IMG/VR virus record: IMGVR_UViG_3300013105_000022
Location: 1-64,000 of that record
DNA: 64,000 nt
Reading direction: 5' to 3' (one strand)
Origin: a virus
Lineage: Duplodnaviria; Caudoviricetes
The notes under the pieces were generated by a model. The model made no database searches. It had not been told where the DNA came from and saw only the letters and a program-made list of their open reading frames with translations. The position numbers and the translations under genes were made by a program. Positions 44-18,100 of the stretch are shown in pieces (positions within the stretch are counted from its first letter, which is position 1; each line of letters begins with the position of its first letter).

Positions 44-120
44 GGTGGTAGAGGCAGAGCGGTTGTTGCAACAGGTTGTGAGCCTGTCCCCTGGCGGGTT
101 CGATTCCCGTCTATCACCCA
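44..120 (+). tRNA. tRNA-His(GTG)
   Basis: Cloverleaf; ACAGG-TTGTGAG-CCTGT anticodon arm, GGTTCGATTCC T loop, extended acceptor. Confidence 0.9.
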
Positions 121-164
121 GAGCGGTTGTAGGTAACGCGGAGACATCCGGTGGAACCTAATTT

Positions 165-237
165 GGCTCTATGATGTAAAGGTAAGCATGTCAGCTTGTC
201 AAGCTGGATGTGGGGGTTCGACTTCCCCCTAGAGTCG
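165..237 (+). tRNA. tRNA-Asp(GTC)
   Basis: TCAGC-TTGTCAA-GCTGG, TTCGACT T loop, GGCTCTA/TAGAGTC acceptor, G73. Confidence 0.9.
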
Positions 238-242
238 CAAAA

Positions 243-295
243 AGCTCTTGAGAAAGAGCTTGACAATACGTCTGGAAGGGCGTATAACTAAGACA
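243..295 (+). promoter_or_regulatory. Promoter of GOLLD/tRNA operon with an inverted repeat abutting the -35
   Basis: AGCTCTT-GAGA-AAGAGCT hairpin, TTGACA 260-265, 17 nt, TATAACT 283-289. Confidence 0.75.
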
Positions 296-1085
296 TGGGG
301 CATGACCCATAAGCATCCGTGAGGGTGTGAAAGAGAGTGTGACAACCTCTCGCCAGGCAACTGGTACCTCATGCAATCTGAGTGATTCACTTATCCGGTG
401 CCAAGCTGGGTAAGCGACATTCGAGTCACCTGAAGCACCCTAGGGCCGACCGGCGAGGGGTGGCCACCTGTTCTCGCAGTGTGGAAAAGGATCATGACAA
501 GAGTGTTGTTCATGCAGAGGGTGAGTTAGTTCGAGGCCTGTCAGCCAAGAGCAATCACCACGAGTCACAAGTATTGGACCGGAGGGTTCAAGAAAATGGG
601 ACAAGAAATGTAAGTAGCCTGACAGCGAACGCATTCGAAGGTGTGTAGTATTCTGAATCTCAAAAGGGTTCGGAGCTACATGAGAAAGCACATCTTCAGT
701 CAAATACCGCATCATTAGCTCATTGGCAGAGCAATTCCCTCTAACGGAATAGGCGGCAGGTTCAATTCCTGCATGTTTATGCAAAACACAAGCGAAAGCC
801 TTTCTCGTCAGGTAACGAAAGTGCCTTAATCCTCAGCACGTAAGTGAACTGAGGCAACTGGAAGCTCGCAAGGCCAAGGTTGTTCATAGGAAAGTAGCAG
901 GAGTTCAGGAGCTTAGCGGCCCCTGTTCGGTTGCAAAATCCGTGGAGTAAGTACCTGATTCTGGGGTGGTGCCCCGTAAAATCCACCAGGCATGACAAGT
1001 ACAGTGGCGACACTGTGGAGAAGTCGGGAACCAATAATCCGGCGAAAGCTTGTTACGATAGGATGTATTCTCAGTCCTCTTCACC
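295..1085 (+). ncRNA. GOLLD RNA (~790 nt) with embedded tRNA
   Basis: No credible ORF, dense hairpins, inside a phage tRNA cluster; GOLLD-like segments recalled by eye (GGTGTGTAGTATTC..CTCAAAAGG..GCACATCTT, GCTCGCAAGG, GGGAACCAATAATCC..GTATTCTCAG). Confidence 0.8.
709..783 (+). tRNA. tRNA with CUA (amber) anticodon inside the GOLLD linker
   Basis: TAGCTCATTGGCAGAGC D arm, ATTCC-CTCTAAC-GGAAT, GCAGG-TTCAATT-CCTGC; acceptor has a 3-nt bulge. Confidence 0.75.
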
Positions 1086-1113
1086 CTCCGGGGCCTCGAA
1101 ACCCCCGGAATTT

Positions 1114-1185
1114 GGTCTCATCGTATAGCGGCTAATACGCTAGGTTCTCAGCCTAGTAACCGGGGTTCGATTCCCCGTGGGATCA
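1114..1185 (+). tRNA. tRNA-Glu(CTC)
   Basis: CTAGG-TTCTCAG-CCTAG; canonical T arm. Confidence 0.92.
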
Positions 1186-1186
1186 C

Positions 1187-1255
1187 GCAAGCGTGTAGTT
1201 TAAGAAAAACACCGAGCAAGGCTCGGAGTTGGGGAAATGTCCCCCACGTGAGCCA
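1187..1255 (+). ncRNA. tRNA-like element with a 3-nt loop in place of the anticodon loop
   Basis: GCGTG/CACGT acceptor, GTTT/AAAC D stem, CCGAGC-AAG-GCTCGG, GGGG/CCCC T stem. Confidence 0.55.
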
Positions 1256-1258
1256 TAT

Positions 1259-1330
1259 GGCCCCATCGTTTAGTGGTTAGGACGCTGGTCTTTCAAGCCG
1301 GTAATGAGGGTTCGATTCCCTCTGGGGTCA
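1259..1330 (+). tRNA. tRNA-Glu(TTC)
   Basis: CTGGT-CTTTCAA-GCCGG; canonical arms. Confidence 0.92.
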
Positions 1331-1404
1331 CGTTGTAGCAACATTCCTCCCACGGATAGCTATTCGGTTCAAATCCGACGCGAGACGGCGATAGGGTCAC
1401 ATAA

Positions 1405-1487
1405 CCTGAGTTATACCGTAGGGGTAGCGGGACTGGCTGTAACCCAGTTGCCATTAGGCTCGGGGAGTTCGACTCTCTCACTCAGGA
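1405..1487 (+). tRNA. tRNA-Tyr(GTA), long variable arm
   Basis: ACTGG-CTGTAAC-CCAGT; CCTGAGT/ACTCAGG acceptor. Confidence 0.9.
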
Positions 1488-1616
1488 CGCAACACAAAAC
1501 AGTTATGAGCTTGCCGCGTAAGCGGTAAGTTCTTGAGGCTTCTGGTCAACGAAAAAGCCTACAGGCTGGCGAACCCAAGCGCTACACCTGAGCACGTGTT
1601 AGTAAACTGCTCATAC

Positions 1617-1690
1617 GGGAGTAGAAGAGCCAAGGATGACAGGGCTGACTGTAAATCAGTTCGTGGTAGGTTCGATTCCTACTGCTCCCA
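1617..1690 (+). tRNA. Atypical tRNA-Tyr(GTA), short variable loop, poor D stem
   Basis: GCTGA-CTGTAAA-TCAGT; GTAGG-TTCGATT-CCTAC; GGGAGTA/TGCTCCC. Confidence 0.7.
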
Positions 1691-1771
1691 CGCATGGCGC
1701 AATATTCGGACGTTGAGGATTAGTGACCTTCAACCATTAGTGAGCGCTGGCAGGGAATCGTCTCAACACTA

Positions 1772-1839
1772 GGGACGAGGCAAATGAGCACTCCGGCCTG
1801 ATAAAGCCGGTGGACTGGGTTGGACTCCCAGACGTGCCA
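1772..1839 (+). pseudogene. Degenerate tRNA-Ile(GAT)-like gene
   Basis: CCGGC-CTGATAAA-GCCGG (8-nt loop), CTGGG-TTGGACT-CCCAG, mismatched acceptor. Confidence 0.5.
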
Positions 1840-1875
1840 CATCGGCAGGTTGGTGTAAGGACCATTTCCCTTTAT

Positions 1876-1948
1876 GGGACTTTGGCGTAGCTGGAGCGCG
1901 CGACCGTCTGAAGAGCGGTAGGACAGGGTTCGATTCCCTGAGGTCCCA
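1876..1948 (+). tRNA. tRNA-Phe(GAA)
   Basis: ACCGT-CTGAAGA-GCGGT; canonical T arm. Confidence 0.9.
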
Positions 1949-2038
1949 CAGTAGGCGCGCTAGGCGTCGAAGCCGGAAACTCACTCAAAGCCCGGACGCA
2001 GGAGGAAGCTTTCGAGACGTTTCTCCACCCTAGTATAT

Positions 2039-2111
2039 GGCTTCGTAGGCAACGGAAGACCACTCTGACTTAGAATCAGTGATGCTGTGGGTTCGAATCC
2101 CACCGGAGCTA
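2039..2111 (+). tRNA. tRNA-Leu(TAG), short variable loop
   Basis: TCTGA-CTTAGAA-TCAGT; GTGGG-TTCGAAT-CCCAC. Confidence 0.85.
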
Positions 2112-2112
2112 C

Positions 2113-2196
2113 GCTCGTTTGGTGAAACAGGTAGACACGCCAGTCTCAGAAGCTGGTGCCCGATAGGGCGTGCGGGTTCGACTCCCGTGATGAGCA
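2113..2196 (+). tRNA. tRNA-Leu(CAG)
   Basis: CCAGT-CTCAGAA-GCTGG; long variable arm. Confidence 0.92.
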
Positions 2197-2287
2197 CAAT
2201 GTTGGGGCAATGCGTACGGCACAATTTGAGACACCGCAGGAGTAGCGACGGACCTCAGCCCAACATCTAGGATTCCTCTGTGAATAC

Positions 2288-2371
2288 GCGCGAGTGATGG
2301 AATAGGTAGTCTTGCCAGAATGAGAGTCTGGTGTCCGAAAGGGCGTGGGGGTTCGAGTCCCCTCTTGCGCA
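2288..2371 (+). tRNA. tRNA-Leu(GAG)
   Basis: CCAGA-ATGAGAG-TCTGG; long variable arm. Confidence 0.9.
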
Positions 2372-2395
2372 CAATGAGACCCCAAGGAGGGCAAT

Positions 2396-2746
2396 ATGGA
2401 ATTCGAACTTTACTCCAGCTATTTCGGAGAGAACGCCCCTCGTGTCATCACTGATGTTGAGTGGGTCGATGAACTTGAGCTTGACAACGCTTCATATCAG
2501 TTCTACATCCTCCTTGTCGTCAAGAGAGAAGACGGGTACTACCTGTCCACTGACTCTGGATGCTCCTGCCCAACGCCGTGGGAGAACCACACGTTCCCGG
2601 AGAGCTTCACCGGTCCTCTGACGGCAGAGCAGGCACGTGAGGAGTCTTCTTCCCTCATCGAGGGAGCACAGGAGACAGCGCGTAACGGCTACTCTGAAGG
2701 TCCCGACGAGTATAGGGCTAAGGCACTGCTCGCCAAGATCGTCTAA
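2396..2746 (+). CDS. Hypothetical phage protein (DSGCSCPTPWE motif)
   Basis: AAGGAGG SD, phage-like codon usage, followed by a terminator. Confidence 0.8.
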   Translation: MEFELYSSYFGENAPRVITDVEWVDELELDNASYQFYILLVVKREDGYYLSTDSGCSCPTPWENHTFPESFTGPLTAEQAREESSSLIEGAQETARNGYSEGPDEYRAKALLAKIV

Positions 2747-2749
2747 CTA

Positions 2750-2788
2750 GAAAACCCCAGGTCAGCACATGATCTGGGGTTTTTCTTT
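2750..2788 (+). terminator. Intrinsic terminator
   Basis: AAAACCCCAGGTCA..TGATCTGGGGTTTTTCTTT. Confidence 0.85.
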
Positions 2789-2864
2789 GCCTGAACGGCC
2801 TTACAGGCGTATACATGAGCTAGACTAGAAGCTGTATAACCAGCCATACCCCAGGGAGAACCTT

Positions 2865-3119
2865 GTGTCAATCCTCAGTGATAGCCTGAAGGACGTACGT
2901 GAGCCAAAGCAGAAGCCGAGCAACTTCAGGAAGTGGCTCGACTCTCTTTCAGAGGAGGATCGTAAGATCGCTCTGGATGCTATGCACGACAAGACCATTC
3001 TGAAGACCCACTTGCAGGAAGCCTTCAAGAGGGCAGGCCTTCAGGTCTCTAAGGACACTCTCAACAGGATCAGAGAGCAACTGCAAGACGGAACTCTCAA
3101 GGACGAGGACATTCGATGA
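2865..3119 (+). CDS. Small hypothetical protein, possibly DNA-binding
   Basis: GTG start with GGAG SD; ATGA overlap with next gene. Confidence 0.7.
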   Translation: MSILSDSLKDVREPKQKPSNFRKWLDSLSEEDRKIALDAMHDKTILKTHLQEAFKRAGLQVSKDTLNRIREQLQDGTLKDEDIR

Positions 3120-4336
3120 GTGAGCTAGGCGAAGACATCCAGAAGGCCAAGGAGAAGGCGCAAGCCGCTATCAAGGCCGATGAGTACTTCATGAAGGATT
3201 CCGAAGGTAACTTCAAGGAAGCCACCCTCATGGCTACAACAGCCTGGGGAGAGGATGATTGGAAGGCCTGGCTTCTTGAGCAGGGTACCAATCCGGAAGA
3301 TGTCACCTTCACCTTTGGAGTAACTTCCAATCCGTCCGGTGGTTACTGGAACAAGCTCCTCAATGTCAAGTACAAGAACAAGAATTTGGACGACGAAGGC
3401 GTGCCTCTGTGGCCTGTCATCCAGCCTTCCACGACCGTCTATAAGCTACGTCCCGTAGTCAAGACTCCGAAGGTCTCCAAGTTCAAGACAGCCGTGATCG
3501 GTGCAGACACTCAGATCGGCTTCGACATGGACGACCAGGGCAACCTGTACCCGTACCATGACGACCAGGCTATGGATGTCTTCCTCCAGGTCGTACAGCT
3601 TGAGGACCCAGACCAGACGATTCTTGCCGGTGACATCCTAGACCTTGCAGAGCAGGGCCGATGGGCACAGGAAGCTCGATTCGCGAACACCACACAGCAT
3701 GCCCTAGAGCGTGGCCGTAGGTTCGCCGCTGAGACCCGAGCCGCTACCAGTGGAGAGATTCACTGGATCGAGGGTAACCACGACAAGCGAATGCAGGGCT
3801 TCATGGAAGCCAACGCGAAGAGCGCTATGGGACTTCGTAAGGCCGGATACCCAGACTCGTGGCCTGTGATGAGTCTCCCGAATCTGATTGGTCTCGATGA
3901 CTTCGATACCACCTACATCGACGCATACCCAGCCGGACAGCACTGGATCACCGACAACCTCCGTGTGATTCATGGCACCAAGAGCCGTAGCAACGGTTCT
4001 ACGGCCTCAGCGTATGCCAACACGACTCCACACCTGTCTACCATCTTTGGACACTCTCACAGGCTTGAGATTCAGTCCAAGACGATCTTCGACAGGGCAG
4101 GCAAGATCAGGACGATGAACGTCAACCCTGGATGCCTGTGTCGTATCGACGGTGCAGTACCTTCCGTGCACGGTGCACGACACCTGGACGGCTCTAAGGC
4201 CACGTTCTACGAGGACTGGCAACAGGGCGTGGCAGTGATCCGCTACCGCGACACCGGCGAGTTCTACGTGGAACTCATCCAGATCGACAACGGCAAAGGC
4301 TTCTACGGTGGCCAAGAGCTAGAGTCACGTGTCTGA
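3116..4336 (+). CDS. Calcineurin-like metallophosphoesterase
   Basis: DTQ, GDILD, GNHD, IHG, GHSH motifs in order. Confidence 0.85.
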   Translation: MSELGEDIQKAKEKAQAAIKADEYFMKDSEGNFKEATLMATTAWGEDDWKAWLLEQGTNPEDVTFTFGVTSNPSGGYWNKLLNVKYKNKNLDDEGVPLWPVIQPSTTVYKLRPVVKTPKVSKFKTAVIGADTQIGFDMDDQGNLYPYHDDQAMDVFLQVVQLEDPDQTILAGDILDLAEQGRWAQEARFANTTQHALERGRRFAAETRAATSGEIHWIEGNHDKRMQGFMEANAKSAMGLRKAGYPDSWPVMSLPNLIGLDDFDTTYIDAYPAGQHWITDNLRVIHGTKSRSNGSTASAYANTTPHLSTIFGHSHRLEIQSKTIFDRAGKIRTMNVNPGCLCRIDGAVPSVHGARHLDGSKATFYEDWQQGVAVIRYRDTGEFYVELIQIDNGKGFYGGQELESRV

Positions 4337-4971
4337 TGAGTGTGATTTCCGTAGAGAGGGCCTTGTGCCCAAAATGCGGCACACTTCAGCCTAGAGACGA
4401 GTGGCCTACCTATCCTGACGGAAAATATAGAAGAACATGTAGAGAGTGCAAGCGCGCCAAGGATAGAGAATACGCGGCTAGAACTGCCGAGAAGAGACGC
4501 AAAGTATCAAGCGCTTGGATCAAGGCACACCCAGAGGTAAACAGGTCTAGGGTGAAAGCGTGGCAAAAGAAAAATCCGGAAAAGGCCAGAGAGACCAGAA
4601 GAGCTTGGTACAAGAATAACCCAGAGAAAGTTCACGCCAGCAATCGCGCCTCCTATCTGAGAAATAAGGACGTACACTTCGCAAAAGCGGCTAGATACAG
4701 AGCCAGGAAGCGGGAGGCCGAGTGCGGTTGCGTAGATAAAAGCTTTCGTCAGACTCTGATTAGAGCATATGGAGCTTCTTGTTTCTACTGCGGGGGTTCT
4801 TATGAGCACACCGACCACTTCGTACCTCTTGCTGGCGGAGGAATGAACTGTATTTCAAATCTAGTTCCATCCTGTGCTAACTGCAACCTGTCCAAGAAGG
4901 CGAAGCAAGTAGAGGACTGGACCGGATGGAACGGCAAGAGTCCGACGCTTGAGTGCCCCAGTAAGCGATAG
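4336..4971 (+). CDS. HNH homing endonuclease
   Basis: CFYCG..DHFVPLAGGG.N...NLVPSCANCNLSK; N-terminal Zn ribbon and basic helices. Confidence 0.9.
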   Translation: MSVISVERALCPKCGTLQPRDEWPTYPDGKYRRTCRECKRAKDREYAARTAEKRRKVSSAWIKAHPEVNRSRVKAWQKKNPEKARETRRAWYKNNPEKVHASNRASYLRNKDVHFAKAARYRARKREAECGCVDKSFRQTLIRAYGASCFYCGGSYEHTDHFVPLAGGGMNCISNLVPSCANCNLSKKAKQVEDWTGWNGKSPTLECPSKR

Positions 4972-4982
4972 TAGGAAGTATC

Positions 4983-5129
4983 ATGGAAGCATCATTCGAT
5001 GAGGAAGTCAACGCCTACTACTTCGGTGACGAAGACACCACAGTAGCGAAGGTCGTAGACCTCGGAAGCCGACACGTCTTCGTGGACGTAGACCATAACG
5101 GAAAGATTGTTGGGGTCGAAGTCCTCTAA
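4983..5129 (+). CDS. DUF2283-like small protein (48 aa)
   Basis: MEASFDEEVNAYYF..VFVDVDHNGKIVGVEVL. Confidence 0.65.
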   Translation: MEASFDEEVNAYYFGDEDTTVAKVVDLGSRHVFVDVDHNGKIVGVEVL

Positions 5130-5168
5130 GGACTTGACATCTGACTCTAGAGGGGCGATAGTAGAGCT

Positions 5169-5471
5169 ATGGAAGCTATCACACAGACAGAACCCGTCGT
5201 CACGGTAACGGACGCGGAGACCATCGAGTTCAGTATCGACCTCCCTGGCGTTGAGGACTATGTGCCTTGCGAGCAGTGCGACTCCACTGTGAAGAACGGT
5301 GTCATCGCATCCACTCGTTCGTACATGTTCTTCTTCTACAAGGACGGCCTCTTCTCCTTCTGCAAGCACCACGGAGAGAAGAACCAGGCCAAGCTCGAAG
5401 AACTGGGCGGAACACTGGTACTGGATACCCGTGATCGCCTCATCGAGAACCGGCTTCAGGGACAACTCTGA
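5169..5471 (+). CDS. Hypothetical Cys/His Zn-binding protein
   Basis: CEQC..FCKHH; leaderless after TTGACA-N17-GATAGT. Confidence 0.75.
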   Translation: MEAITQTEPVVTVTDAETIEFSIDLPGVEDYVPCEQCDSTVKNGVIASTRSYMFFFYKDGLFSFCKHHGEKNQAKLEELGGTLVLDTRDRLIENRLQGQL

Positions 5472-5617
5472 AAAATTTCTGACAGTTTGGGCCTTCCGGC
5501 TCAGATGTATGTTACAGTAGGACACATGAGTACAAATCAGACCATCGCAACGCGCGGAGCCTCGAAGCAGGTATCCGGCGTTAAGAGGCCTGTCTAGATT
5601 CATAAAACTAGACTTCC

Positions 5618-5686
5618 AAGAGCCTCTTCAGAGAAATCTGACAGAGGCTCTTGACATTTACGGGGGAAGCCCGTAAGATTAAGACA
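5618..5686 (+). promoter_or_regulatory. Promoter of second tRNA operon with an inverted repeat at the -35
   Basis: AAGAGCCTCT..AGAGGCTCTT overlapping TTGACA, 17 nt, TAAGATT-AAGAC-A. Confidence 0.7.
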
Positions 5687-5818
5687 TAGCCTCCTTGGGG
5701 GAAGAAATTCCGGACAGGATGAGCACTAGAACTCTGGGTAAAGCGCTACGGCGGCTCCCCGTCAAGTACACAGTGGAATCCGATACGGGACCAGGACGTA
5801 AGAGCCTGGCCCCGGAAT

Positions 5819-5905
5819 GGAGTAGTCGCCTAGAGGCCTATGGCGCTTGTCTGGAAAGCAAGTTGGGTACCCAATCCCTCGCAGGTTCGAATCCTGTCTA
5901 CTCCG
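5819..5905 (+). tRNA. tRNA-Ser(GGA)
   Basis: CTTGT-CTGGAAA-GCAAG; long variable arm; G73. Confidence 0.92.
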
Positions 5906-5908
5906 CAA

Positions 5909-5979
5909 AGGGAAGAGCGTGAAGCATGCTTAAAATCGCCTCTAAAGCGGTTGATACTGGGGTAGCGTCCAGTTTCCCT
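5909..5979 (+). ncRNA. Divergent tRNA-like gene with CUA anticodon
   Basis: AGGGAA/TTCCCT, ATCGC-CTCTAAA-GCGGT, ACTGG-GGTAGCGT-CCAGT (no TTC). Confidence 0.55.
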
Positions 5980-5982
5980 ATA

Positions 5983-6070
5983 TGGAGATGTGGTCGAGAG
6001 GCTTATGGCGTCTGTTTCGAAAGCAGAAGTGGCGTTAAACCCACCGCAGGTTCAAATCCTGTCATCTCCG
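5983..6070 (+). tRNA. tRNA-Ser(CGA)
   Basis: TCTGT-TTCGAAA-GCAGA; long variable arm. Confidence 0.92.
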
Positions 6071-6216
6071 CGTTACCACACGTCGTCTTTGTGCGGCTAG
6101 GGTTGCATCCTTACTGAACCGAATCCTGTGACTTGCTAGATAGGGCCACGGGGAGGAGGGTTTGGGTCCGCGAGACACAAGGGGGTTGCTCTTACCTTTA
6201 TCTAGGTGGTATCTTT

Positions 6217-6299
6217 GGAAGGTAAGCGAATGGAAAGCGCGTTGTTTTGAAAGCAATTATCCGGTAACACGGTTGCAGGTTCGAGTCCTGTACCTTCCG
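6217..6299 (+). tRNA. tRNA-Ser(TGA)
   Basis: GTTGT-TTTGAAA-GCAAT; long variable arm. Confidence 0.88.
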
Positions 6300-6300
6300 C

Positions 6301-9554: not shown

Positions 9555-9556
9555 AT

Positions 9557-12142: not shown

Positions 12143-12204
12143 TACAAGGGATAGTGCTTCTGCCTCCTAAGCAGAGAATCCAGGTTCGAGTCCTGGTAGT
12201 GGCG
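12133..12204 (+). tRNA. tRNA-Arg(CCT)
   Basis: TCTGC-CTCCTAA-GCAGA. Confidence 0.9.
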
Positions 12205-12222
12205 CGCTAGAAAGGAACAGAG

Positions 12223-12814
12223 ATGACACCTGAAGAGATTGAGGATGCGGCAACGCAACTCGTAGTGGAGCATCTTGACGAGGGTATCGAATACCTTACG
12301 GTATCTGAAGCACTCTTCGAGGAGCACGAAGAAGTCAGTGAGGAAGACACCAAGGCCGTGTTCGACAAGGCCAACCGTATCCTTACGAAGATCATCGATA
12401 TGTACTTCGAGGATGCCGACTAGTGGACGAATTCGATCACCCACTCTTCCTCCACGGTATGGATGTGGGTGAGTCCATCGGTGAATACAACGCTCAGGCT
12501 GAGGCACAGCGCGCTTACGACATGGGCGAGATTGAGCTTTGGCTCGCATTCTACAAGCCGAAGACCATTTCCGAGTGGGTCGAATGGGAATTGGAACACG
12601 GAAGATCAGGTGATTTCGAGAAAAGGTGGGCAAGATGACACAAACAATTCGGCTTACCTCTCAGGAGACCGGCGAGTTGATTGACGAATTCGAGGTAGAG
12701 GACGATGAGTTCGCTATCTGGGAAAGAGCGGCAAGCAAGATGGGTCTCACGGTCGAGGAATTCCTTGTCAAGGCAATCCACGACTTCGCAGACAATTACA
12801 AGCCCAAGAAGTAA
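12223..12814 (+). CDS. Three coupled small acidic hypothetical genes (12223-12423, 12423-12638, 12635-12814)
   Basis: Overlapping stop/start codons, SD before the first. Confidence 0.7.
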
Positions 12815-12844
12815 ACCCCCACTGAGCCGGGGTAAAGGCTCTGA

Positions 12845-12917
12845 TCCCCGGTAGTTTATGTTGGTAAAACGCCTGACTCTGAATCAGGAATGCTTGGATC
12901 GTCGCCAGGCTGGGGAG
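12845..12917 (+). tRNA. tRNA-Gln(CTG) with aberrant T loop
   Basis: CCTGA-CTCTGAA-TCAGG; T loop ATCGTCG. Confidence 0.8.
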
Positions 12918-12983
12918 CGAGGTAGCTATTTCACCTACGACAAATGGTCGCGAACTAGATCGTAGTGCGGTAGTTACCCACAT

Positions 12984-13054
12984 ACCGGAGTGGTGTAAAG
13001 GTAGCACAAGAGACTTTGACCCTCTTAGACTTGGTTCGATACCAGGCTCCGGTG
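12984..13054 (+). tRNA. tRNA-Gln(TTG)
   Basis: AGAGA-CTTTGAC-CCTCT; ACCGGAG/CTCCGGT acceptor. Confidence 0.85.
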
Positions 13055-13205
13055 CAATGCGAGGCCCACCCGCCATATGCAAATGCTAAGTGAGTGGCGC
13101 TCTGGGAGTTGCAACCCTCGCAGAAAGTCCTCAGGTAAGCAAGGCCAAATGTAATTACGACCTGAGGCAAGTTTTCGATAGTAGTCAGTGACTGAAGGAG
13201 TCATC

Positions 13206-13373
13206 ATGTACGATCCACAGATTGGCGACACCTGGACAAGGAACGGTCGCGAACTTCACATCATCCAGAGTGACCCGCTGAACAGCAGGGTTCAGATCGA
13301 GTACACGGAGTCAAGGCGTACGCGCTGGATCGACGTTGCCGACCTTCTTGCTAAGTACACCTTCGTAGCTTAG
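13206..13373 (+). CDS. Small hypothetical protein
   Basis: GAAGGAG SD; stop lies inside tRNA-Arg(CCG). Confidence 0.65.
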   Translation: MYDPQIGDTWTRNGRELHIIQSDPLNSRVQIEYTESRRTRWIDVADLLAKYTFVA

Positions 13374-13430
13374 AGGATAGAGCACATCCCTCCGAAGGAT
13401 GAGACACGGGTTCGAGTCCCGTCGAGGGTA
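13359..13430 (+). tRNA. tRNA-Arg(CCG)
   Basis: CATCC-CTCCGAA-GGATG. Confidence 0.92.
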
Positions 13431-13443
13431 CGTTAGGAGCATC

Positions 13444-13593
13444 ATGGCCAAGCTCATGGGCCGTATTCATTCGCGAAACTGTGACTGCAATATCGAGCAG
13501 TACGTGTCTGGTGTCGGTGAGAAGTGCAACCATCGCTACGGCGTGAAGCGCCAACGCTCCCGCGAGAAGCGACAGTGGAAGAAGGAATCGTGA
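13444..13593 (+). CDS. Small basic Cys/His protein
   Basis: AGGAG SD; ends KRQRSREKRQWKKES. Confidence 0.65.
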   Translation: MAKLMGRIHSRNCDCNIEQYVSGVGEKCNHRYGVKRQRSREKRQWKKES

Positions 13594-13736
13594 ACAAGTA
13601 CTTTGTGAACGCAGAGAACGAAGCAGGAACAGCCGGTGAGCGGCCTCTGATCGAGGCTGAGAGCGCCGAAGAAGCTCAGGCTATCTACGAGGGCTTTGGG
13701 ACGGGTTACGCCGTCACAAGCGTCGATGTGGCCTAA
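13590..13736 (+). CDS. Small acidic hypothetical protein
   Basis: GTGA overlap, AAGGA SD. Confidence 0.6.
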   Translation: MNKYFVNAENEAGTAGERPLIEAESAEEAQAIYEGFGTGYAVTSVDVA

Positions 13737-13851
13737 TGAGGGAATACGCGCAACAGCCGGTAGCTGTGAGGTTCACACCCAAAGTGCGTCCCGCTAGTCA
13801 ATTGCCTAGCCCCCCTAAAAGTCATCGCTTAAAAGTGCGATAGTAGAGGAC

Positions 13852-14286
13852 ATGAAAAGATGTCCCAAGTGTCAGACAGATAAGCCCCTAGCCGAGTTCG
13901 CGAAGCGGGCTAAGTCTCCTGACGGCCTACAGTCCTGGTGCCGGTCGTGCAACGCGGCTAGGTCCAAGCAGTACTACGCCGAGAACACAGAGAAGCACAA
14001 GTCTGTGGTGACTTATAGGGCCAATACTGAGCGCTTCCGTCAAAGGCAAATGCTTATCGAGTACAAGGAGTCGCATCCCTGTACAGATTGCGGACTTCAC
14101 TTCCCTTACTACGTCATGGACTTCGATCATCTAGACGGTAAGAAGTGTAATGTCTCCAGTATGCCTGGCAACTGGTCAGACGCAACTATTTGGGATGAAG
14201 TAGCAAAGTGCGAACTGGTATGTTCTAATTGTCATCGAATCCGCACACATACAAGACGGGTCTCTGGTGTAATGGTAGCACTGTAG
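13852..14286 (+). CDS. HNH endonuclease
   Basis: CTDCG..MDFDHLD..KCELVCSNCHRIRT; last codons lie inside tRNA-Lys. Confidence 0.9.
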   Translation: MKRCPKCQTDKPLAEFAKRAKSPDGLQSWCRSCNAARSKQYYAENTEKHKSVVTYRANTERFRQRQMLIEYKESHPCTDCGLHFPYYVMDFDHLDGKKCNVSSMPGNWSDATIWDEVAKCELVCSNCHRIRTHTRRVSGVMVAL

Positions 14287-14328
14287 GCTTTTACCCTTCA
14301 GGTCAGAGTTCGATCCTCTGGGGACCCA
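14258..14328 (+). tRNA. tRNA-Lys(TTT)
   Basis: GTAGG-CTTTTAC-CCTTC; GGGTCTC/GGGACCC acceptor. Confidence 0.8.
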
Positions 14329-14329
14329 C

Positions 14330-14488
14330 ATGAACAATCAAGAAGAACTCTCCGTCTACTTGCCTCTCGTGGTGGCCAAGATGCCAGACAAGAGGATCGT
14401 AGGCCTGAGAGTCGAATACGGGTACGTCTTTGTTGACGTGGAGGATGAGGTAGATTCTTACATCTTCCCTGTCTCTGACTTCATCTGA
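14330..14488 (+). CDS. Small hypothetical protein (52 aa)
   Basis: Open frame MNNQEELSVYLPLVVAKMPDKRIVGLRVEYGYVFVDV.. Confidence 0.5.
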   Translation: MNNQEELSVYLPLVVAKMPDKRIVGLRVEYGYVFVDVEDEVDSYIFPVSDFI

Positions 14489-14504
14489 GGCGTATACATG
14501 ACTT

Positions 14505-14579
14505 GGCGGTATGACCGAGTGGCATAGGTAACAGCTTGCAAACCTGTTTACGCCGGTTCGATTCCGGCTACCGTCTCCA
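14505..14579 (+). tRNA. tRNA-Cys(GCA), CCA encoded
   Basis: ACAGC-TTGCAAA-CCTGT; U73-CCA. Confidence 0.93.
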
Positions 14580-14601
14580 AGCACTAACAAGAGAGAACAC
14601 A

Positions 14602-14883
14602 ATGAAGCCACGTAGAGTACAGGTATCACATCAGAAGGACGAGGGGTTCACCCTCACTGTGGAAGAGTACTCACGTTTCCGCTCAGGGGTGGCATGGGTC
14701 GCAGACAAGCTCTGTGTACTGACAGGTCACCACTTCTGCAACTCAGGTCCCATCGCGTGGGCCTTCGAGTGGGACTGGCACGGCTCTACGGAGCTTGTAC
14801 GCATCCCCATCGAGCGTGAGACAGCAGATAAGCTCGCCTACGACAAGGATTCTTGGTCGTGGCTTGACGAATCCGACGAATGA
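14602..14883 (+). CDS. Hypothetical protein
   Basis: Start MKPRRVQ; phage-like codon usage. Confidence 0.7.
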   Translation: MKPRRVQVSHQKDEGFTLTVEEYSRFRSGVAWVADKLCVLTGHHFCNSGPIAWAFEWDWHGSTELVRIPIERETADKLAYDKDSWSWLDESDE

Positions 14884-15032
14884 GCGTATAACTGAAGTAG
14901 CCCATCAGCCAAGCTGACTGCCGAAGTCTAGAAATAGATGTACGCGGAGTGGTAGGTATGAGGACTCTAATTCCTTAGGGGAGTCTAGGATGGCAACCTG
15001 GCCGAGTATACGCGGACGAACAGCCAACAAAT

Positions 15033-15104
15033 GCCCCTGTAGCTGAGTGGATTAGCTGGAGCCTTCTAAACTCCGAGACGCAGGTTCGAATCCTGTCAGG
15101 GGCG
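15033..15104 (+). tRNA. tRNA-Arg(TCT)
   Basis: GGAGC-CTTCTAA-ACTCC. Confidence 0.9.
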
Positions 15105-15181
15105 CGAGACCGCGTGTGACACGGACTAATCGAGCCGTTAAGCGGCGCGGTCTTCTAACTTCGTAGCGCGATAGTATCAAT

Positions 15182-15499
15182 ATGAGTAAAATCCTTGATA
15201 TGCTGGCAGACGTAAACGCGCAGAAGAAGCTACACCTTCGTCTCGCCATCTTTTGGGCTATCAACCTACCGGTTGTGTGCCTGATCTACTTCCTTCTCCC
15301 TGAGGTCTGGAAGGAAGCAAGCATTCTCTATCTCGCAGTTGTCTCGATCTATGCGAACTTCGTAGGTGAGATTTCATCTTGGCAGGCCGCTAAGGTGGAA
15401 GTAAGGCAAGAAGAGATTGAAGCCGCAAGGCACGAAGAAGAACAAGAAAAGGTCGAGGAGATTGTCGAGCGAGTCAACGACATCACACCGGACAAATAA
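15182..15499 (+). CDS. Membrane protein (2 TM, charged C-terminus; holin-like possible)
   Basis: Two hydrophobic helices; leaderless after GATAGT. Confidence 0.7.
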   Translation: MSKILDMLADVNAQKKLHLRLAIFWAINLPVVCLIYFLLPEVWKEASILYLAVVSIYANFVGEISSWQAAKVEVRQEEIEAARHEEEQEKVEEIVERVNDITPDK

Positions 15500-15572
15500 G
15501 CCCGCATGGTGTACTGGTAGTGCACGTTTGTCTGATACGCAAAAGGTCCTAGTTCAACTCTAGGTGTGGGTA
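15500..15572 (+). tRNA. tRNA-Ile(GAT)
   Basis: TTTGT-CTGATAC-GCAAA. Confidence 0.85.
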
Positions 15573-15644
15573 CGGTAGGGGAGGCCTCCCCTGCAAGAGG
15601 CGAGTGGGGTTCGATTCCTCCTGGTTGGAACATTCGCTTCGCAT

Positions 15645-15718
15645 AGTCCTTTAGCTCAGTTGGTTAGAGCGCAACACTGATAATGTTGAGGTCCAGGGTT
15701 CAAATCCCTGAAGGGCTA
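15645..15718 (+). tRNA. tRNA-Ile(GAT)
   Basis: CAACA-CTGATAA-TGTTG; canonical. Confidence 0.93.
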
Positions 15719-15784
15719 CTAACGTGAATCCTCACTGCGGGGAGACGGAAGGCTGGTCCCGGCCTATCACGTGAAAGGGCATAT

Positions 15785-15857
15785 GGGGTCTTAGCTCAGT
15801 TGGTAGAGCATCTGTCTGGCAGACAGAAGGTCAGGGGTTCGAATCCCCTATTCTCCA
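15785..15857 (+). tRNA. tRNA-Ala(GGC)
   Basis: TCTGT-CTGGCAG-ACAGA; G3:U70; two acceptor mismatches. Confidence 0.85.
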
Positions 15858-15911
15858 CAGCCGAGAGTAGCTAGCTCTCACAATAGTCTCTGTTGCTGAG
15901 ACGGGCACTAT

Positions 15912-15984
15912 GGGCCTGTAGCTCAATTGGTAGAGCACCTGCTTTGCACACAGGAGGTCGCGCGTTCGATTCGCGTCAGGTCCA
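15912..15984 (+). tRNA. tRNA-Ala(TGC)
   Basis: CCTGC-TTTGCAC-ACAGG; G3:U70. Confidence 0.9.
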
Positions 15985-16053
15985 CGGAAAGGGTCCGGTT
16001 CGTCCGTGATAAAAAAGAAAGACCATGTGTTACGCATGGCACCTTATCCCCAC

Positions 16054-16125
16054 GGGGGCACATGTACCAAGGTGGCGAGTCTCTTTTGCAAGGAGACTGG
16101 GTGGGTTCGATTCCCACTGTTTCCA
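16054..16125 (+). tRNA. tRNA-Ala(TGC), divergent D arm
   Basis: TCTCT-TTTGCAA-GGAGA; GTGGG-TTCGATT-CCCAC. Confidence 0.8.
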
Positions 16126-16170
16126 CGCGGACGGCGTTGAGTAGCTACACGCGCGTCGTCTCGCTGTAAT

Positions 16171-16230
16171 GGGCTGTATGAGACTGGAGAGTTTCGGTGC
16201 ACGAGGCGGGTTCGATTCCCGCACAGTCCA
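16171..16230 (+). ncRNA. 60-nt mini tRNA-Ala / tmRNA TLD-like RNA
   Basis: GGGCTGT/ACAGTCC-A with G3:U70, unpaired D region, short stem, perfect T arm. Confidence 0.65.
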
Positions 16231-16365
16231 CAAATAGCACCCAAGAACTTTCCTGAGGGTGCGAAGGGAGATACGGAAGTGACTCTCCTACCAACAAGAA
16301 CGGATTCCACTGTGGACAGCTTGACAAAAGAAGAATTCCACACCCTCGCACGAACGGGTGAGCTT

Positions 16366-16696
16366 ATGCTTACTACCGAAAGAGACGAGGAGCAGATCGC
16401 CACTCACCTTATCAAGGATCACGGCTGGATCAACGTGGACATTCACTACGAGAAGGACACAGAGGCGGGTTGGCTGAGGCTCTGGATCGACTGAGAGCAC
16501 GATAGTAGTACATAGACACCTTAGGAGTGTAGCTATGGACTACGAATACAATGACACCACTCTTCTAGAGACTCTGAAGAGTACCGACGTTCCTCGCATC
16601 CTCACGGATCGCGTAGATGGGACAGTCGTCTATGTTGCGTTGTCTGACGATGGGGAATCCCTAGTCGAGGTAGACATCGAGGAACTAGATGACTGA
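16366..16696 (+). CDS. Two small acidic hypothetical genes (16366-16494, 16535-16696)
   Basis: Open frames; the second has an AGGAG SD and overlaps the endolysin start. Confidence 0.55.
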
Positions 16697-17804
16697 CCTT
16701 GGCGGAGGACGTGGCTGGTTGAACCCGGACCCTGCCGCATCCCTATTCCGCATTGACAGCAAGCTGGGTCACCGTCTACAGGTTACCGAGGCCGGTCGCA
16801 CCTGGCAACGTCAGAATGAGCACTTTCAGCGCTACCTCAAGTACGGAGCGCCTATCGCTCTGTCTCCAGACGGACCCCCCAAGGGTAATGGTCCTAGCGT
16901 CCACCAAAAGGGTGCCGCTATCGACACTGACGAGGGTCAGAACTACGTACAGCTACTAGCCGATCACGGATGGATTCGCACCGTTTACCGCAACGGTAAT
17001 CTTGTAGAGCCGTGGCACTTCGAGTATTTCAAGAGCCGCGACAAGTACTACGGACAGGGTACCGGAGCAGGCAACCAGTCGAGTGCTCTAGATGTCGCAA
17101 CCATTAAGAAGCTTCAGACCGTACTTGGAGTCAAGGCTGACGGAAATTGGGGTGCGGGAACAACTACTGCACTTCAGAACAAGCTCATCGCTATCGGCTA
17201 CAAGATCAAGGCTGACGGCGATTTCGGACCTTCCACAATCAAGGCACTTCAGACCTTCCTTATGGGAGCGAAGAACGCTGACGGTGATTTCGGAGCTAAG
17301 AGCATCACCGCTCTGAAGAACTACTTGAACAACGGCGGAAAGTTCAGCCCGCCCGCAACACCGAAACCCCCCAAGGAGATTGAAGTGATTTCATATCACA
17401 GGGAGGACAAGACCTCTCGCACATCAGGTCGAAACCTAGCTCCAGGAGCAGGGTTCTATCTACACACGGTAGCCAACGTTCCCGCGTCGAATGCAAGCAA
17501 CGTCGTGGGCGGCGTAGGTTCCTACTCGATTACCCCTCACATCTACGGAACAGGAACTGCCGGTGACGTAGTTGAGATTCAGCTAATCTGGCAGAACACG
17601 AAGACCAAGCCCGCCATGAACAGCGCACACTACGTTGAGCGCCTGGTAGTGGACAAGGATGGGAAGATTCGTGCTTCTCGCGAGTTCAAGAGGGCCGTAG
17701 CGGCTGGATACGCCGTCTACCTACGTGTAGATGCCCCGAAGACAAATAAGGCCGCTGTGAAGATCACAGTAGCCGACGTGGATTCCTACTTGTTCGTTAG
17801 CTGA
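16689..17804 (+). CDS. Endolysin: M15-family Zn peptidase, peptidoglycan-binding repeats, C-terminal domain
   Basis: SVHQKGAAID and EPWHFEY motifs; three LQ..L...ADG.[WF]G..T repeats. Confidence 0.88.
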   Translation: MTDLGGGRGWLNPDPAASLFRIDSKLGHRLQVTEAGRTWQRQNEHFQRYLKYGAPIALSPDGPPKGNGPSVHQKGAAIDTDEGQNYVQLLADHGWIRTVYRNGNLVEPWHFEYFKSRDKYYGQGTGAGNQSSALDVATIKKLQTVLGVKADGNWGAGTTTALQNKLIAIGYKIKADGDFGPSTIKALQTFLMGAKNADGDFGAKSITALKNYLNNGGKFSPPATPKPPKEIEVISYHREDKTSRTSGRNLAPGAGFYLHTVANVPASNASNVVGGVGSYSITPHIYGTGTAGDVVEIQLIWQNTKTKPAMNSAHYVERLVVDKDGKIRASREFKRAVAAGYAVYLRVDAPKTNKAAVKITVADVDSYLFVS

Positions 17805-17825
17805 TTCGTCTGCTACACTCGTTAC

Positions 17826-17975
17826 ATGATGTTGACGCAGAGTTACCGCAAGCTCCACACCAAGGAGTGCATGTACGGTCGTAAGTGTTGCACCACGGAT
17901 GACCGCAAGAGCAGGGCACTTCGTCGCCACGGTCGTAAGATCGAGAAGCGACTGTGGAAGCGAGAAGTGTGGTAG
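17826..17975 (+). CDS. Small basic Cys/His protein
   Basis: MMLTQSYRKLHTKECMYGRKCC..RRHGRKIEKRLWKREVW. Confidence 0.6.
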   Translation: MMLTQSYRKLHTKECMYGRKCCTTDDRKSRALRRHGRKIEKRLWKREVW

Positions 17976-18028
17976 GCTTCTACTAATACGACTTAGGATT
18001 TTCTCGGGATGAGAGGGTCCTAGGTTCT

Positions 18029-18100
18029 GCCGGTATCGCCAAGAGGTAAGGCACTGGTTTCATACTCCAGAATACGTGAGTTCGAGTCTCACTACCGGTA
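18029..18100 (+). tRNA. tRNA with CAT anticodon (Met or Ile2)
   Basis: CTGGT-TTCATAC-TCCAG; GCCGGTA/TACCGGT. Confidence 0.85.

What the first reader, a model, noticed from the sequence alone, without database searches (positions are those of the whole stretch)
44..18100. tRNA island doubling as a tRNA-punctuated array of structured RNAs and tRNA mimics
Seen: most non-coding gaps between the ~39 tRNAs are 50-190 nt, non-repetitive, and fold into closed, multi-helix or pseudoknotted units. Examples are 1506-1613, 1960-2033, 2202-2264, 6074-6211, 7453-7635, 7988-8115, 13059-13167 and 14899-15030. At least six are tRNA-shaped but cannot decode normally. Known: RNase P and 3'-end processing of tRNAs releases intervening RNA, and phage tRNAs counter host tRNA-cleaving defences. 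Inference: the phage uses tRNA processing to mass-produce a panel of decoy or regulatory RNAs against anticodon nucleases, stringent-response sensors or RNAP.
Basis: partly seen in the sequence, partly recalled or inferred. Interest (0 to 1): 0.85.

Follow-up and report, generated by a model that had tools for sequence, protein, structure and literature searches.

The report
Phage tRNA array hiding structured RNAs
A phage's 38-gene tRNA cluster also carries a known giant RNA (GOLLD), two previously undescribed conserved small RNAs and about eight tRNA look-alikes wedged between the tRNA genes. Most of the other gaps are unconserved filler, and nothing shows that any of these RNAs is a decoy.

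Summary
Partly right. The window opens inside a same-strand tRNA array of a 136.5-kb IMG/VR phage contig. The array is syntenic with those of large Microbacterium phages.

What holds up:
- GOLLD RNA (RF02032) at 636-1077, 213.9 bits, with a tRNA-like cargo.
- E1 (8040-8126), a four-hairpin RNA with no Rfam family. It occurs in 12 phage arrays with strong covariation and always abuts the next tRNA's 5' end, between different tRNA pairs.
- E7 (7453-7635). Its 13-bp terminal helix is kept in a metagenomic relative through six compensated differences.
- A conserved non-canonical tRNA-Tyr at 1617-1689.
- Ten T-arm hairpins outside called tRNAs, all in island spacers (0.28 expected). They mark permuted, anticodon-arm-less and "T-loop-first" tRNA look-alikes.

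What does not hold up:
- "Most gaps" is too strong.
- Orthologous spacers range from 0 to over 400 nt.
- Spacer folding is only modestly better than controls (mean z -1.19 vs -0.21).
- There is no evidence for any target. Mimics without an anticodon loop cannot bait anticodon nucleases.

I found no note on other DNA.

The parts
45..18101 (+). Same-strand phage tRNA array: 38 ARAGORN tRNAs grouped by amino acid, interspersed with HNH endonuclease and other ORFs. It continues at genome 135223-136289.
   Evidence: Gene order is syntenic with Microbacterium phages A3Wally, Big4, Zooman, Pumpernickel and Magritte.
636..1077 (+). GOLLD RNA (RF02032). The whole model, positions 1-416, is matched.
   Evidence: 213.9 bits against a gathering score of 150, E = 1e-59. 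Absent from five Microbacterium relatives.
713..775 (+). tRNA-like cargo in the GOLLD linker. The anticodon loop reads CUCUAAC (anticodon CUA). The acceptor stem is interrupted by a UUU bulge.
   Evidence: Rfam tRNA model 47.4 bits over model positions 5-66. Not called by ARAGORN. Sequence read.
1617..1689 (+). Non-canonical short tRNA-Tyr(GUA): class-I length, degenerate D arm, typical ATAC leader.
   Evidence: tRNA-Sec model 31 bits. Seven-base-pair acceptor found. Conserved in A3Wally, Big4, Zooman and Pumpernickel, with an invariant anticodon arm and covarying acceptor and T stems. Column-shuffle z = -3.5.
8040..8126 (+). E1: a new conserved RNA of about 85 nt with four hairpins (P1 has a GGAA loop, P2 is a variable hairpin, P3, P4). 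Its 3' end abuts tRNA-Thr(ggt).
   Evidence: 12 instances at 73-110 bits, one per phage. 97.4% of cells are paired (11-sequence alignment), against 87% when shuffled and about 40% when slid. RNAalifold z = -8.3 (12 sequences), with 7 compensatory pairs against a null mean of 0.9. No Rfam match at E<=10.
7453..7635 (+). E7: a conserved 183-nt RNA closed by a 13-bp terminal helix (7453-7465 with 7623-7635). The core carries an unpaired CCUCCUUUC.
   Evidence: Syntenic with L015:876-1067. The helix is perfect in both copies, and all 6 differing positions are compensated. Consensus energy is -45.7, against -6.7 mean and -15.2 minimum for mismatched spacer pairs. Column-shuffle z = -13.
7641..7735 (+). 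E2: a 95-nt unit flush with tRNA-Thr(tgt), 98% identical to the whole Thr(tgt)-Thr(cgt) spacer of A3Wally and of a masked Microbacterium phage.
   Evidence: The fold is no better than shuffles (z = -0.4). Its nature is unexplained.
6072..6216 (+). E3: a 145-nt spacer-filling unit conserved in sequence with one 171-kb IMG/VR contig. Its structure is unproven.
   Evidence: 80% identity over 145 nt to L009:2890-3034. 4 compensatory pairs against a null of 1.7 (P = 0.07). Single-sequence z = +1.0.
6301..6384 (+). Circularly permuted tRNA-like fold. In order: an 8-bp 'anticodon' stem holding the ends, T arm, a 7-bp acceptor closed by the loop ACCACAU, and D arm.
   Evidence: MFE cloverleaf with z = -1.9. 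Descriptor hit. No counterpart in the closest relative's Ser-Ser spacer (L015:1-83).
6574..6628 (+). tRNA-like RNA without an anticodon arm: acceptor stem, D-like hairpin and a perfect T arm.
   Evidence: The MFE fold recovers this shape, z = -2.6.
16171..16230 (+). Mini tRNA-Ala-like RNA without an anticodon arm. It has G3:U70 and A73 and is the last member of the Ala group.
   Evidence: The MFE fold recovers this shape, z = -2.6. No tmRNA is called.
7277..7323 (+). 'T-loop-first' mini element: a 6-bp closing stem enclosing a T-arm-like hairpin and a hairpin with a UGGU loop.
   Evidence: 85% conserved at the same position, directly after tRNA-Gly(tcc), in L015:677-727, and the second hairpin covaries. 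Only marginal against the mismatched-pair null.
15596..15640 (+). Small element containing a T-arm-like hairpin, closed by a 10-bp stem.
   Evidence: z = -1.9. No homologue found.
1187..1258 (+). Unusually stable four-way-junction spacer between the two tRNA-Glu genes.
   Evidence: z = -4.9 and -4.1. Orthologous spacers in relatives are 0-73 nt and fold differently.
5907..5983 (+). Stable cloverleaf-like spacer with a CUCUAAA loop and no T-loop or D-loop signature.
   Evidence: z = -3.3 and -3.2. No homologue found. No sign that TAG is recoded.
13129..13170 (+). Conserved 8-bp hairpin downstream of tRNA-Gln(ttg).
   Evidence: 89% identity to L015:4857-4902, with one compensated pair. z = -2.4.
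125..160 (+). Recurrent mini-hairpin spacer, GGTTGTAGGT...GGAACC.
   Evidence: Also at L020:1060-1087, twice in Big4 and once in Pumpernickel, each time between a different tRNA pair.

Best explanation
This is a long, rightward-transcribed phage tRNA operon. Its tRNA genes also serve as processing signals for a minority of embedded non-tRNA RNA genes.

Proposed mechanism:
- Host RNase P cuts at every tRNA 5' end, where the leaders share an AUAU-type consensus.
- 3' trimming and CCA addition free the tRNAs, because no CCA is encoded.
- Any stable RNA lying between two tRNAs is then released with defined ends.

The RNAs that look like real genes are GOLLD with its tRNA-like cargo, the new four-hairpin RNA E1, the 183-nt RNA E7 and a non-canonical tRNA-Tyr. 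E2 and E3 are possible further members.

The roughly eight T-loop-bearing tRNA look-alikes (permuted, anticodon-arm-less, T-loop-first) most likely arise from duplication, deletion and rearrangement of tRNA genes inside this fast-turning-over, HNH-rich array. They keep the acceptor/T-arm 'top half' that RNase P and the CCA-adding enzyme recognise, so they should be processed and stabilised like tRNAs. Some may be kept as YrlA-like tRNA mimics.

The remaining spacers are unconserved linkers with a modest excess of sense-strand hairpins.

Shown here: the anatomy, the covariation, the enrichment and the synteny. Inferred: co-transcription, processing, accumulation and any trans-acting function.
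For: Transcription and processing layout:
- All tRNAs and ORFs of the island lie on the + strand, and terminator-like and promoter-like sites are not in excess.
- The leader consensus is T-3 in 27 of 39, A-2 in 27 of 39 and T-1 in 25 of 39. The 3' ends carry no encoded CCA.

GOLLD:
- 213.9 bits over the full model.
- GOLLD inside tRNA arrays, with a pseudo-tRNA in the linker and HNH genes nearby, is already described (PMC6582537; bioRxiv 10.1101/2024.12.08.627333).

E1:
- 12 instances, one per array.
- Flush with the downstream tRNA, and sitting between Thr/Thr, Gly/Gly or Val/Val pairs.
- Strong covariation.
- Absent from 185,579 prokaryote species genomes by pattern scan followed by the covariance model.

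E7:
- The 13-bp helix carries six compensated differences.
- Its consensus energy lies far outside the mismatched-pair null.

tRNA look-alikes:
- The odd tRNA-Tyr is conserved in five phages.
- T-arm enrichment, P = 6e-13.
- Architectures are recovered by MFE folding.
- Related phages carry permuted tRNA-like RNAs with covarying T and acceptor stems.
- M. smegmatis YrlA is cut by RNase P in its acceptor loop and then receives CCA (PMC4201824).

Most spacers are not conserved and their lengths vary from 0 to over 400 nt.
Against:
- E7 rests on two sequences only.
- E3's structure is not significant (P = 0.07).
- E2 folds no better than shuffles.
- The permuted element at 6301-6384 has no counterpart in the closest available relative, and the look-alikes differ in position and architecture between phages. 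This fits neutral turnover as well as selection.
- The relatives are distant (tRNAs 75-85% identical), so lack of spacer conservation does not prove lack of function.
- Six of 26 gaps fold clearly better than shuffles, and four of those six remain unexplained.
Confidence: 0.6

Rival explanations
1. Most spacers are purpose-built decoy or regulatory RNAs, mass-produced through tRNA processing to neutralise anticodon nucleases, stringent-response sensors or RNA polymerase.
For: - Spacers as a set fold somewhat better than controls on the sense strand.
- Several mimics and conserved units are real.
- Phage tRNAs are known to counter tRNA-targeting defences (PMC10264068, PMC11555353).
Against:
- Most syntenic spacers show no conserved sequence or structure, and their lengths vary from 0 to over 400 nt.
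- Armless and permuted mimics lack an anticodon loop.
- No element matches 6S RNA or any other Rfam regulator.
- No target is indicated by anything in the data.
Confidence: 0.1
2. Apart from GOLLD and the bona fide tRNAs, everything between the tRNAs is neutral debris. It consists of decaying tRNA pseudogenes and junk left by duplication, homing-endonuclease-driven conversion and deletion.
For: - Four HNH ORFs lie in the island.
- Single-gene-scale exchange occurs. tRNA-Gln(ctg) is 98.7% identical to Big4's copy and E2 is 98% identical to A3Wally's.
- Spacer length is highly variable.
- The window's permuted element is missing from L015.
- One T-arm remnant, at 1363-1379, has no surrounding fold.
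Against: - E1 covaries across 12 arrays while moving between different tRNA pairs.
- E7's helix keeps perfect pairing through six changes.
- The stems of the armless and permuted elements are fully intact, with z about -2.5.
- Permuted tRNA-like RNAs covary among relatives.
Confidence: 0.1
3. The structured spacers act in cis. They would be hairpins and tRNA-top-half modules that guide or order RNase P/E/III cleavage, block 3'-5' exonucleases or help the neighbouring pre-tRNAs fold. They would not be released trans-acting RNAs.
For: - The hairpin excess is strand-specific.
- A mini-hairpin recurs in short spacers of several phages.
- Leaders are optimised.
- T-loop/acceptor modules are RNase P recognition elements (established knowledge; PMC4201824 shows cleavage of such a module).
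Against: - E1 keeps long invariant single-stranded segments and functions next to three different tRNA pairs. Magritte packs many tRNAs 0-20 nt apart with no such elements yet still retains E1. That pattern fits an autonomous gene better than a local processing aid.
Confidence: 0.2

Closest known systems
GOLLD RNA (Rfam RF02032) in phage and mycobacterial tRNA arrays
   Same: 636-1077 matches the whole model above the gathering score. It lies inside a tRNA array with HNH genes and carries a tRNA-like insert in the linker, as described in PMC6582537 and bioRxiv 10.1101/2024.12.08.627333.
   Different: The host lineage is a Microbacterium-type phage, and five sequenced relatives lack GOLLD. The cargo has a CUA anticodon and a bulged acceptor stem.
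YrlA / bacterial Y RNAs (tRNA-like module; PMC4201824)
   Same: The permuted elements (6301-6384 and genome 135966-136043) have a T arm, a D arm and a 7-8-bp acceptor closed by a loop, with the RNA ends in the 'anticodon' stem. The loop of 6301-6384 reads ACCACAU, which resembles an RNase P/CCA site like the one cut in M. smegmatis YrlA.
   Different: This genome has no Ro60/TROVE gene. The GNCGAAN0-1G motif is absent. There is no long Ro-binding stem and no Rfam match. The relatives do encode Ro-like proteins.
T4 RNAC and RNAD (stable RNAs of the T4 tRNA region)
   Same: They are small stable phage RNAs of unknown function (PMC9697503). From my own knowledge, they are encoded in the T4 tRNA cluster and matured from the same precursors. 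This is the same logic proposed here for E1 and E7.
   Different: No sequence or structural similarity was tested or is expected. E1 and E7 occur in actinophage arrays and are supported only by comparative evidence.
tmRNA tRNA-like domain / alanine minihelix
   Same: 16171-16230 has G3:U70, A73, a T arm and no anticodon arm.
   Different: It is only 60 nt long, with no tag reading frame or pseudoknots. ARAGORN calls no tmRNA.
tRNA punctuation (mitochondrial transcripts; MALAT1 mascRNA)
   Same: tRNA or tRNA-like structures are used as RNase P/Z cleavage marks that define the ends of neighbouring RNAs (established knowledge).
   Different: Here the setting is a bacterial virus, and the released units would be small non-coding RNAs rather than mRNAs or a long non-coding RNA.
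6S RNA
   Same: E7 is about 183 nt long and is closed by a terminal helix.
   Different: There is no Rfam 6S or Ms1 match at E<=5-10. The interior is not a conserved rod with a central bubble, and large indels separate the two known copies.

Membership tests
GOLLD RNA (RF02032) | Covariance-model score at or above the curated gathering score, over the full model | tested here: met
   213.9 bits against 150, model positions 1-416.
GOLLD RNA (RF02032) | Phage or prophage context next to tRNA genes, optionally with a tRNA in the variable linker | tested here: met
   Flanked by tRNA-Asp and tRNA-Glu. tRNA-like insert at 713-775. Context as described in PMC6582537.
GOLLD RNA (RF02032) | Assembly into a homo-oligomeric nanocage | not testable with these tools
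   Known from cryo-EM of one other member (bioRxiv 10.1101/2024.12.08.627333).
YrlA / Y RNA | tRNA-like domain with T arm, D arm and a loop-closed acceptor stem | tested here: met
   6301-6384 and L020:1167-1244.
YrlA / Y RNA | Encoded next to a Ro60 (TROVE) gene | tested here: not met
   No TROVE match in the whole genome. tblastn with the Big4 Ro-like protein finds nothing.
YrlA / Y RNA | Conserved GNCGAAN0-1G motif / Ro-binding stem | tested here: not met
   Regex search finds no match in either permuted element.
Canonical tRNA (RF00005) | tRNA covariance-model score of at least 29 bits, or an ARAGORN call | tested here: not met
   None of 6301-6384, 6574-6628, 7277-7323, 15596-15640, 16171-16230, 1187-1258 or 5907-5983 appears at E<=5 or in ARAGORN. 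The GOLLD cargo at 713-775 does score 47.4 bits.
tmRNA | tRNA-Ala-like domain together with a tag reading frame and pseudoknots | tested here: not met
   ARAGORN run with -m finds no tmRNA. The element is 60 nt long.
6S RNA | Match to the 6S model; conserved rod with a central bubble | tested here: not met
   No match at E<=5 or E<=10. Only the terminal helix and one core block of E7 are conserved.
E1 (proposed new motif) | Four hairpins with invariant linkers (GGUWGGAAUGCC, RAAAUCCGUUGGGG, CCUCAGKAAG), one copy per tRNA array, 3' end abutting a tRNA | tested here: met

The most novel reading that the evidence does not exclude
Large actinophage tRNA arrays are general 'RNA factories'. Besides tRNAs and GOLLD, they encode several undescribed trans-acting RNA classes that borrow RNase P punctuation for their maturation.

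- E1 would be one such class, present in at least 12 arrays.
- E7 would be another. It displays, unpaired, the sequence CCUCCUUUC, which by my recollection matches the 3' end (anti-Shine-Dalgarno region) of actinobacterial 16S rRNA and occurs only once in the genome.
- The acceptor/T-arm-only tRNA mimics would be a further set.

Together these RNAs would manipulate host translation or soak up enzymes and toxins that recognise the tRNA top half or the 16S 3' end.
Probability: 0.2. Interest if true: 0.8.

Novelty: new variant of a known kind. Interest (0 to 1): 0.6.

Why it matters
Phage tRNA clusters are usually annotated as tRNAs plus empty gaps. In this array some gaps hold conserved RNA genes.

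E1 has covariation support as good as many curated Rfam families. It is present in isolated, culturable Microbacterium phages (Big4, Zooman, A3Wally, Magritte, Pumpernickel, Cece), so it can be studied experimentally straight away.

The strong enrichment of tRNA top-half mimics links phage tRNA arrays to Y-RNA-like tRNA mimicry and to GOLLD's tRNA cargo. It gives a concrete system for asking what non-decoding tRNA look-alikes do during infection.

The work also sets a limit. Most spacers are not special, so folding a single sequence by eye over-calls structure.

Tried and rejected
- Ro60, RtcB or Pth homologues in this genome: none found.
- TAG recoding to explain the two CUA loops: TAG ends 34 of the long + strand ORFs, and readthrough gives no outsized gain.
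- E1 relatives inside the window (are E2-E5 copies of E1?): no, there is one copy per genome.
- E1 in bacterial genomes: three pattern hits, none matching the model. Four metagenome pattern hits (L012, L016-L018) are also unrelated.
- E3 homologues: only L009. The similarity to L019 is limited to two short blocks, and 27 further pattern hits are chance.
- E4 (2203-2262): weak similarity to Gln-Gln spacers, but no consensus structure.
- E7 homologues in IMG/VR or in cultured phages: none.
- Counting compensatory pairs on two-sequence alignments: rejected as evidence, because unrelated spacer pairs reach 19 such pairs. The column-shuffle null is also too lenient for heavily gapped alignments.
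- CCTCAGG as a motif shared by the spacers: it is over-represented across the whole window, mostly in coding sequence, so it was dropped.
- Orthologues of the very stable Glu-Glu spacer: relatives fold differently.
- Extending L015 to compare the rest of the island: that record is not held.

Full report
WHAT THE REGION IS

ARAGORN tRNA genes between 45 and 18101, all on the + strand and grouped by amino acid. Rfam confirms nearly all of them. The window is the start of a 136.5-kb IMG/VR viral contig. Six more tRNAs lie at the other contig end, at 135223-136289.

The ORFs inside the island are typical of actinophage tRNA arrays. They include four HNH endonucleases, a metallophosphoesterase, an AAA ATPase, a DUF7574 protein and a peptidoglycan-binding lysin-like protein.

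The tRNA order is syntenic with the arrays of Microbacterium phages A3Wally, Big4, Zooman, Pumpernickel, Magritte and one masked record.

THE OBSERVATION: FOLDING

I folded all 26 tRNA-tRNA gaps of 40-320 nt against dinucleotide shuffles.
- The mean z is -1.19 on the sense strand (P = 4e-4 against zero) and -0.52 on the antisense strand.
- Six gaps have z < -2.
- Length-matched pieces from the rest of the window give a mean of -0.21, with 3 of 52 below -2 (Mann-Whitney P = 0.005).

So there is a real but modest sense-strand excess of structure. Within the short gaps, the only repeats are tRNA-derived. Promoter-like and terminator-like sites are not in excess, which fits long polycistronic transcripts.

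THE OBSERVATION: tRNA-SHAPED ELEMENTS

A strict scan for T arms (5-nt stem, TTCRANY loop) finds 52 on the + strand of the genome. Of these, 41 lie in ARAGORN tRNAs and 11 lie outside. Ten of the 11 are in island spacers. The other ~117 kb contains only four hits on both strands together, which gives 0.28 expected in the island (P = 6e-13).

The ten hits mark the following:
- the GOLLD cargo at 713-775;
- a short tRNA-Tyr-like gene at 1617-1689;
- a circularly permuted tRNA fold at 6301-6384, and a second at genome 135966-136043 with U8-A9, a GG D-loop and an 8-bp loop-closed acceptor;
- two anticodon-arm-less tRNA-likes, at 6574-6628 and at 16171-16230 (the latter with G3:U70 and A73);
- two smaller T-loop elements, at 7277-7323 and 15596-15640;
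- a T-arm remnant at 1363-1379 with no surrounding fold, and a T-arm-like hairpin at genome 135189-135205 that was not examined further.

Plain MFE folding recovers the tRNA-like shapes with z between -1.9 and -2.6. The claim of "at least six" therefore stands.

KNOWN RNA

Rfam places a full-length GOLLD RNA at 636-1077 (213.9 bits; gathering score 150). The tRNA-like insert sits in its linker. GOLLD inside tRNA arrays, with a pseudo-tRNA inside it and HNH genes nearby, is already described (PMC6582537). GOLLD forms a 14-mer nanocage (bioRxiv 10.1101/2024.12.08.627333). Five Microbacterium relatives lack it (with the positive control).

CONSERVED SPACER UNITS

I masked the tRNAs and searched the island against all relatives. 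Only a handful of non-coding pieces are conserved.

E1 (8040-8126)
- It is present once in each of 12 phage arrays: eight cultured or IMG/VR sequences plus metagenome contigs.
- It has four hairpins and long invariant linkers.
- Pairing (11-sequence alignment): 97.4% of cells are paired, against 87% when shuffled and about 40% when the partner is slid. Six pairs show double changes, and the P2 hairpin comes in eight different covarying versions across the 12 instances.
- RNAalifold energy (12 sequences) lies 8.3 sd beyond column shuffles.
- It is flush with the downstream tRNA in every evaluable case and with the upstream tRNA in 8 of 12. The neighbours differ: Thr/Thr, Gly/Gly in Magritte and L025, and Val/Val in L015.
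- No Rfam family matches at E<=10, and no bacterial genome carries it.

E7 (7453-7635)
It looked unremarkable alone (z = -1.2) and has no homologue in cultured phages.
- In the closest available relative, metagenome contig L015, the syntenic spacer is also 192 nt long. Its 13-bp terminal helix is perfect although six positions differ, and every difference is compensated.
- Consensus energy is -45.7. Mismatched spacer pairs give a mean of -6.7 and a minimum of -15.2. Column-shuffle z = -13.
- Its conserved core contains an unpaired CCUCCUUUC, which occurs only once in the genome.

Other conserved units
- The tRNA-Tyr-like gene (1617-1689) is conserved in five phages, with an invariant GUA anticodon arm and covarying stems. 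I read it as a functional non-canonical tRNA.
- E3 (6072-6216) is 80% identical to one IMG/VR contig, but its structure is unproven.
- E2 (7641-7735) is 98% identical to a whole spacer of A3Wally, while the flanking tRNAs are far more diverged. It folds no better than chance. It remains unexplained.
- The T-loop mini at 7277-7323 and a hairpin at 13129-13170 are conserved in L015.

WHAT IS NOT CONSERVED

All other syntenic window/L015 spacers behave like unrelated pairs. Orthologous spacer lengths range from 0 to over 400 nt across phages; for example, Glu-Glu is 0-73 nt and Gln-Gln is 3-426 nt. Magritte packs many tRNAs 0-20 nt apart yet keeps E1. The window's permuted element is absent from L015.

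RELATIVES ALSO CARRY tRNA MIMICS

Big4, Zooman and Pumpernickel share a permuted tRNA-like RNA downstream of tRNA-Ala(ggc), with covarying T and acceptor stems. Further look-alikes sit next to their Ro-like genes. This matches YrlA-type Y RNAs, whose acceptor loop in M. smegmatis is cut by RNase P and then receives CCA (PMC4201824). This genome has no Ro gene and no YrlA motif. It therefore works like, but is not a member of, that family.

MECHANISM

tRNA leaders share an A-4 T-3 A-2 T-1 consensus, and no CCA is encoded. The best reading is a tRNA-punctuated operon. RNase P and 3' processing would release the tRNAs and, as a by-product, any stable RNA between them. A few such RNAs (GOLLD, E1, E7, perhaps E2 and E3) are maintained genes. 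The tRNA look-alikes are rearranged tRNA copies that keep the processing and stability determinants, and some may be retained as mimics. The rest is linker.

Nothing in the data points to a target. Mimics without an anticodon loop cannot bait anticodon nucleases, although phage tRNAs do counter such defences (PMC10264068, PMC11555353). The nearest precedent for unexplained stable RNAs from a phage tRNA cluster is T4 RNAC/RNAD (PMC9697503; their location in the tRNA cluster is from my own knowledge).

VERDICT

GOLLD is known. E1, and probably E7, are new RNA motifs. The density of tRNA top-half mimics is noteworthy. Expression and function remain untested.

Noticed in passing
window, positions -4 to -1 before each tRNA (e.g. 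1255-1258, 5980-5983, 7909-7912): The tRNA 5' leaders share the consensus A-T-A-T (T-3 in 27 of 39, A-2 in 27 of 39, T-1 in 25 of 39). The tRNA genes encode no CCA; most have a single C after the discriminator.
   Followed up: partly
window 12845-12920: tRNA-Gln(ctg) is 98.7% identical to Big4's copy, while the neighbouring tRNAs are about 75-85% identical. E2 behaves the same way. This suggests recent gene-sized exchange between arrays.
   Followed up: no
window 1-119 and genome 136171-136289: The first 119 nt of the contig (a 44-nt leader plus tRNA-His) are repeated exactly near the contig end. The sequences then diverge. This is either a second tRNA-His copy or an assembly join.
   Followed up: partly
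L002:19895-19995, L010:19947-20047, L011:21223-21323: Big4, Zooman and Pumpernickel share a permuted tRNA-like RNA. In order it has an anticodon-arm-like hairpin, a T arm, a loop-closed 9-bp acceptor and a canonical D arm, and it covaries. In Big4 part of it is annotated as a 68-nt tRNA-Ser.
   Followed up: partly
L010:2358-2420, L002:1224-1285, L001:3376-3440: Directly after tRNA-Pro(cgg), three relatives carry a T-loop hairpin enclosed by an 8-9-bp stem. The stem covaries between Zooman and Big4.
   Followed up: no
genome 136119-136205 (L020:1320-1406): An 87-nt block upstream of tRNA-His is 78% identical to Pumpernickel L011:2149-2235, where it lies upstream of tRNA-Pro(cgg). It is another spacer unit that changes position between phages.
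   Followed up: no
L001 (A3Wally record MZ150783.1): Many tRNA features in the deposited annotation are named as if the anticodon were the codon. For example, 'tRNA-Arg(cgt)' is called tRNA-Thr(cgt) by ARAGORN.
   Followed up: no
window 8953-9023: ARAGORN's tRNA-Val(tac) gets no Rfam tRNA match even at E<=5. It also overlaps the start of the HNH ORF at 9012-9554. Relatives have a Val(tac) gene at the same place.
   Followed up: no
window 7594-7602: CCTCCTTTC occurs only once in the genome. It is conserved in L015 and is unpaired in the E7 consensus fold. By my recollection it equals the 3' end of actinobacterial 16S rRNA.
   Followed up: partly
window 5651-5679, 8382-8410, 10339-10368, 5134-5162: Four + strand sites have a perfect TTGACA -35 hexamer and 17-18 nt spacing. 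They are possible internal promoters of the island, although the total count is not above chance.
   Followed up: no
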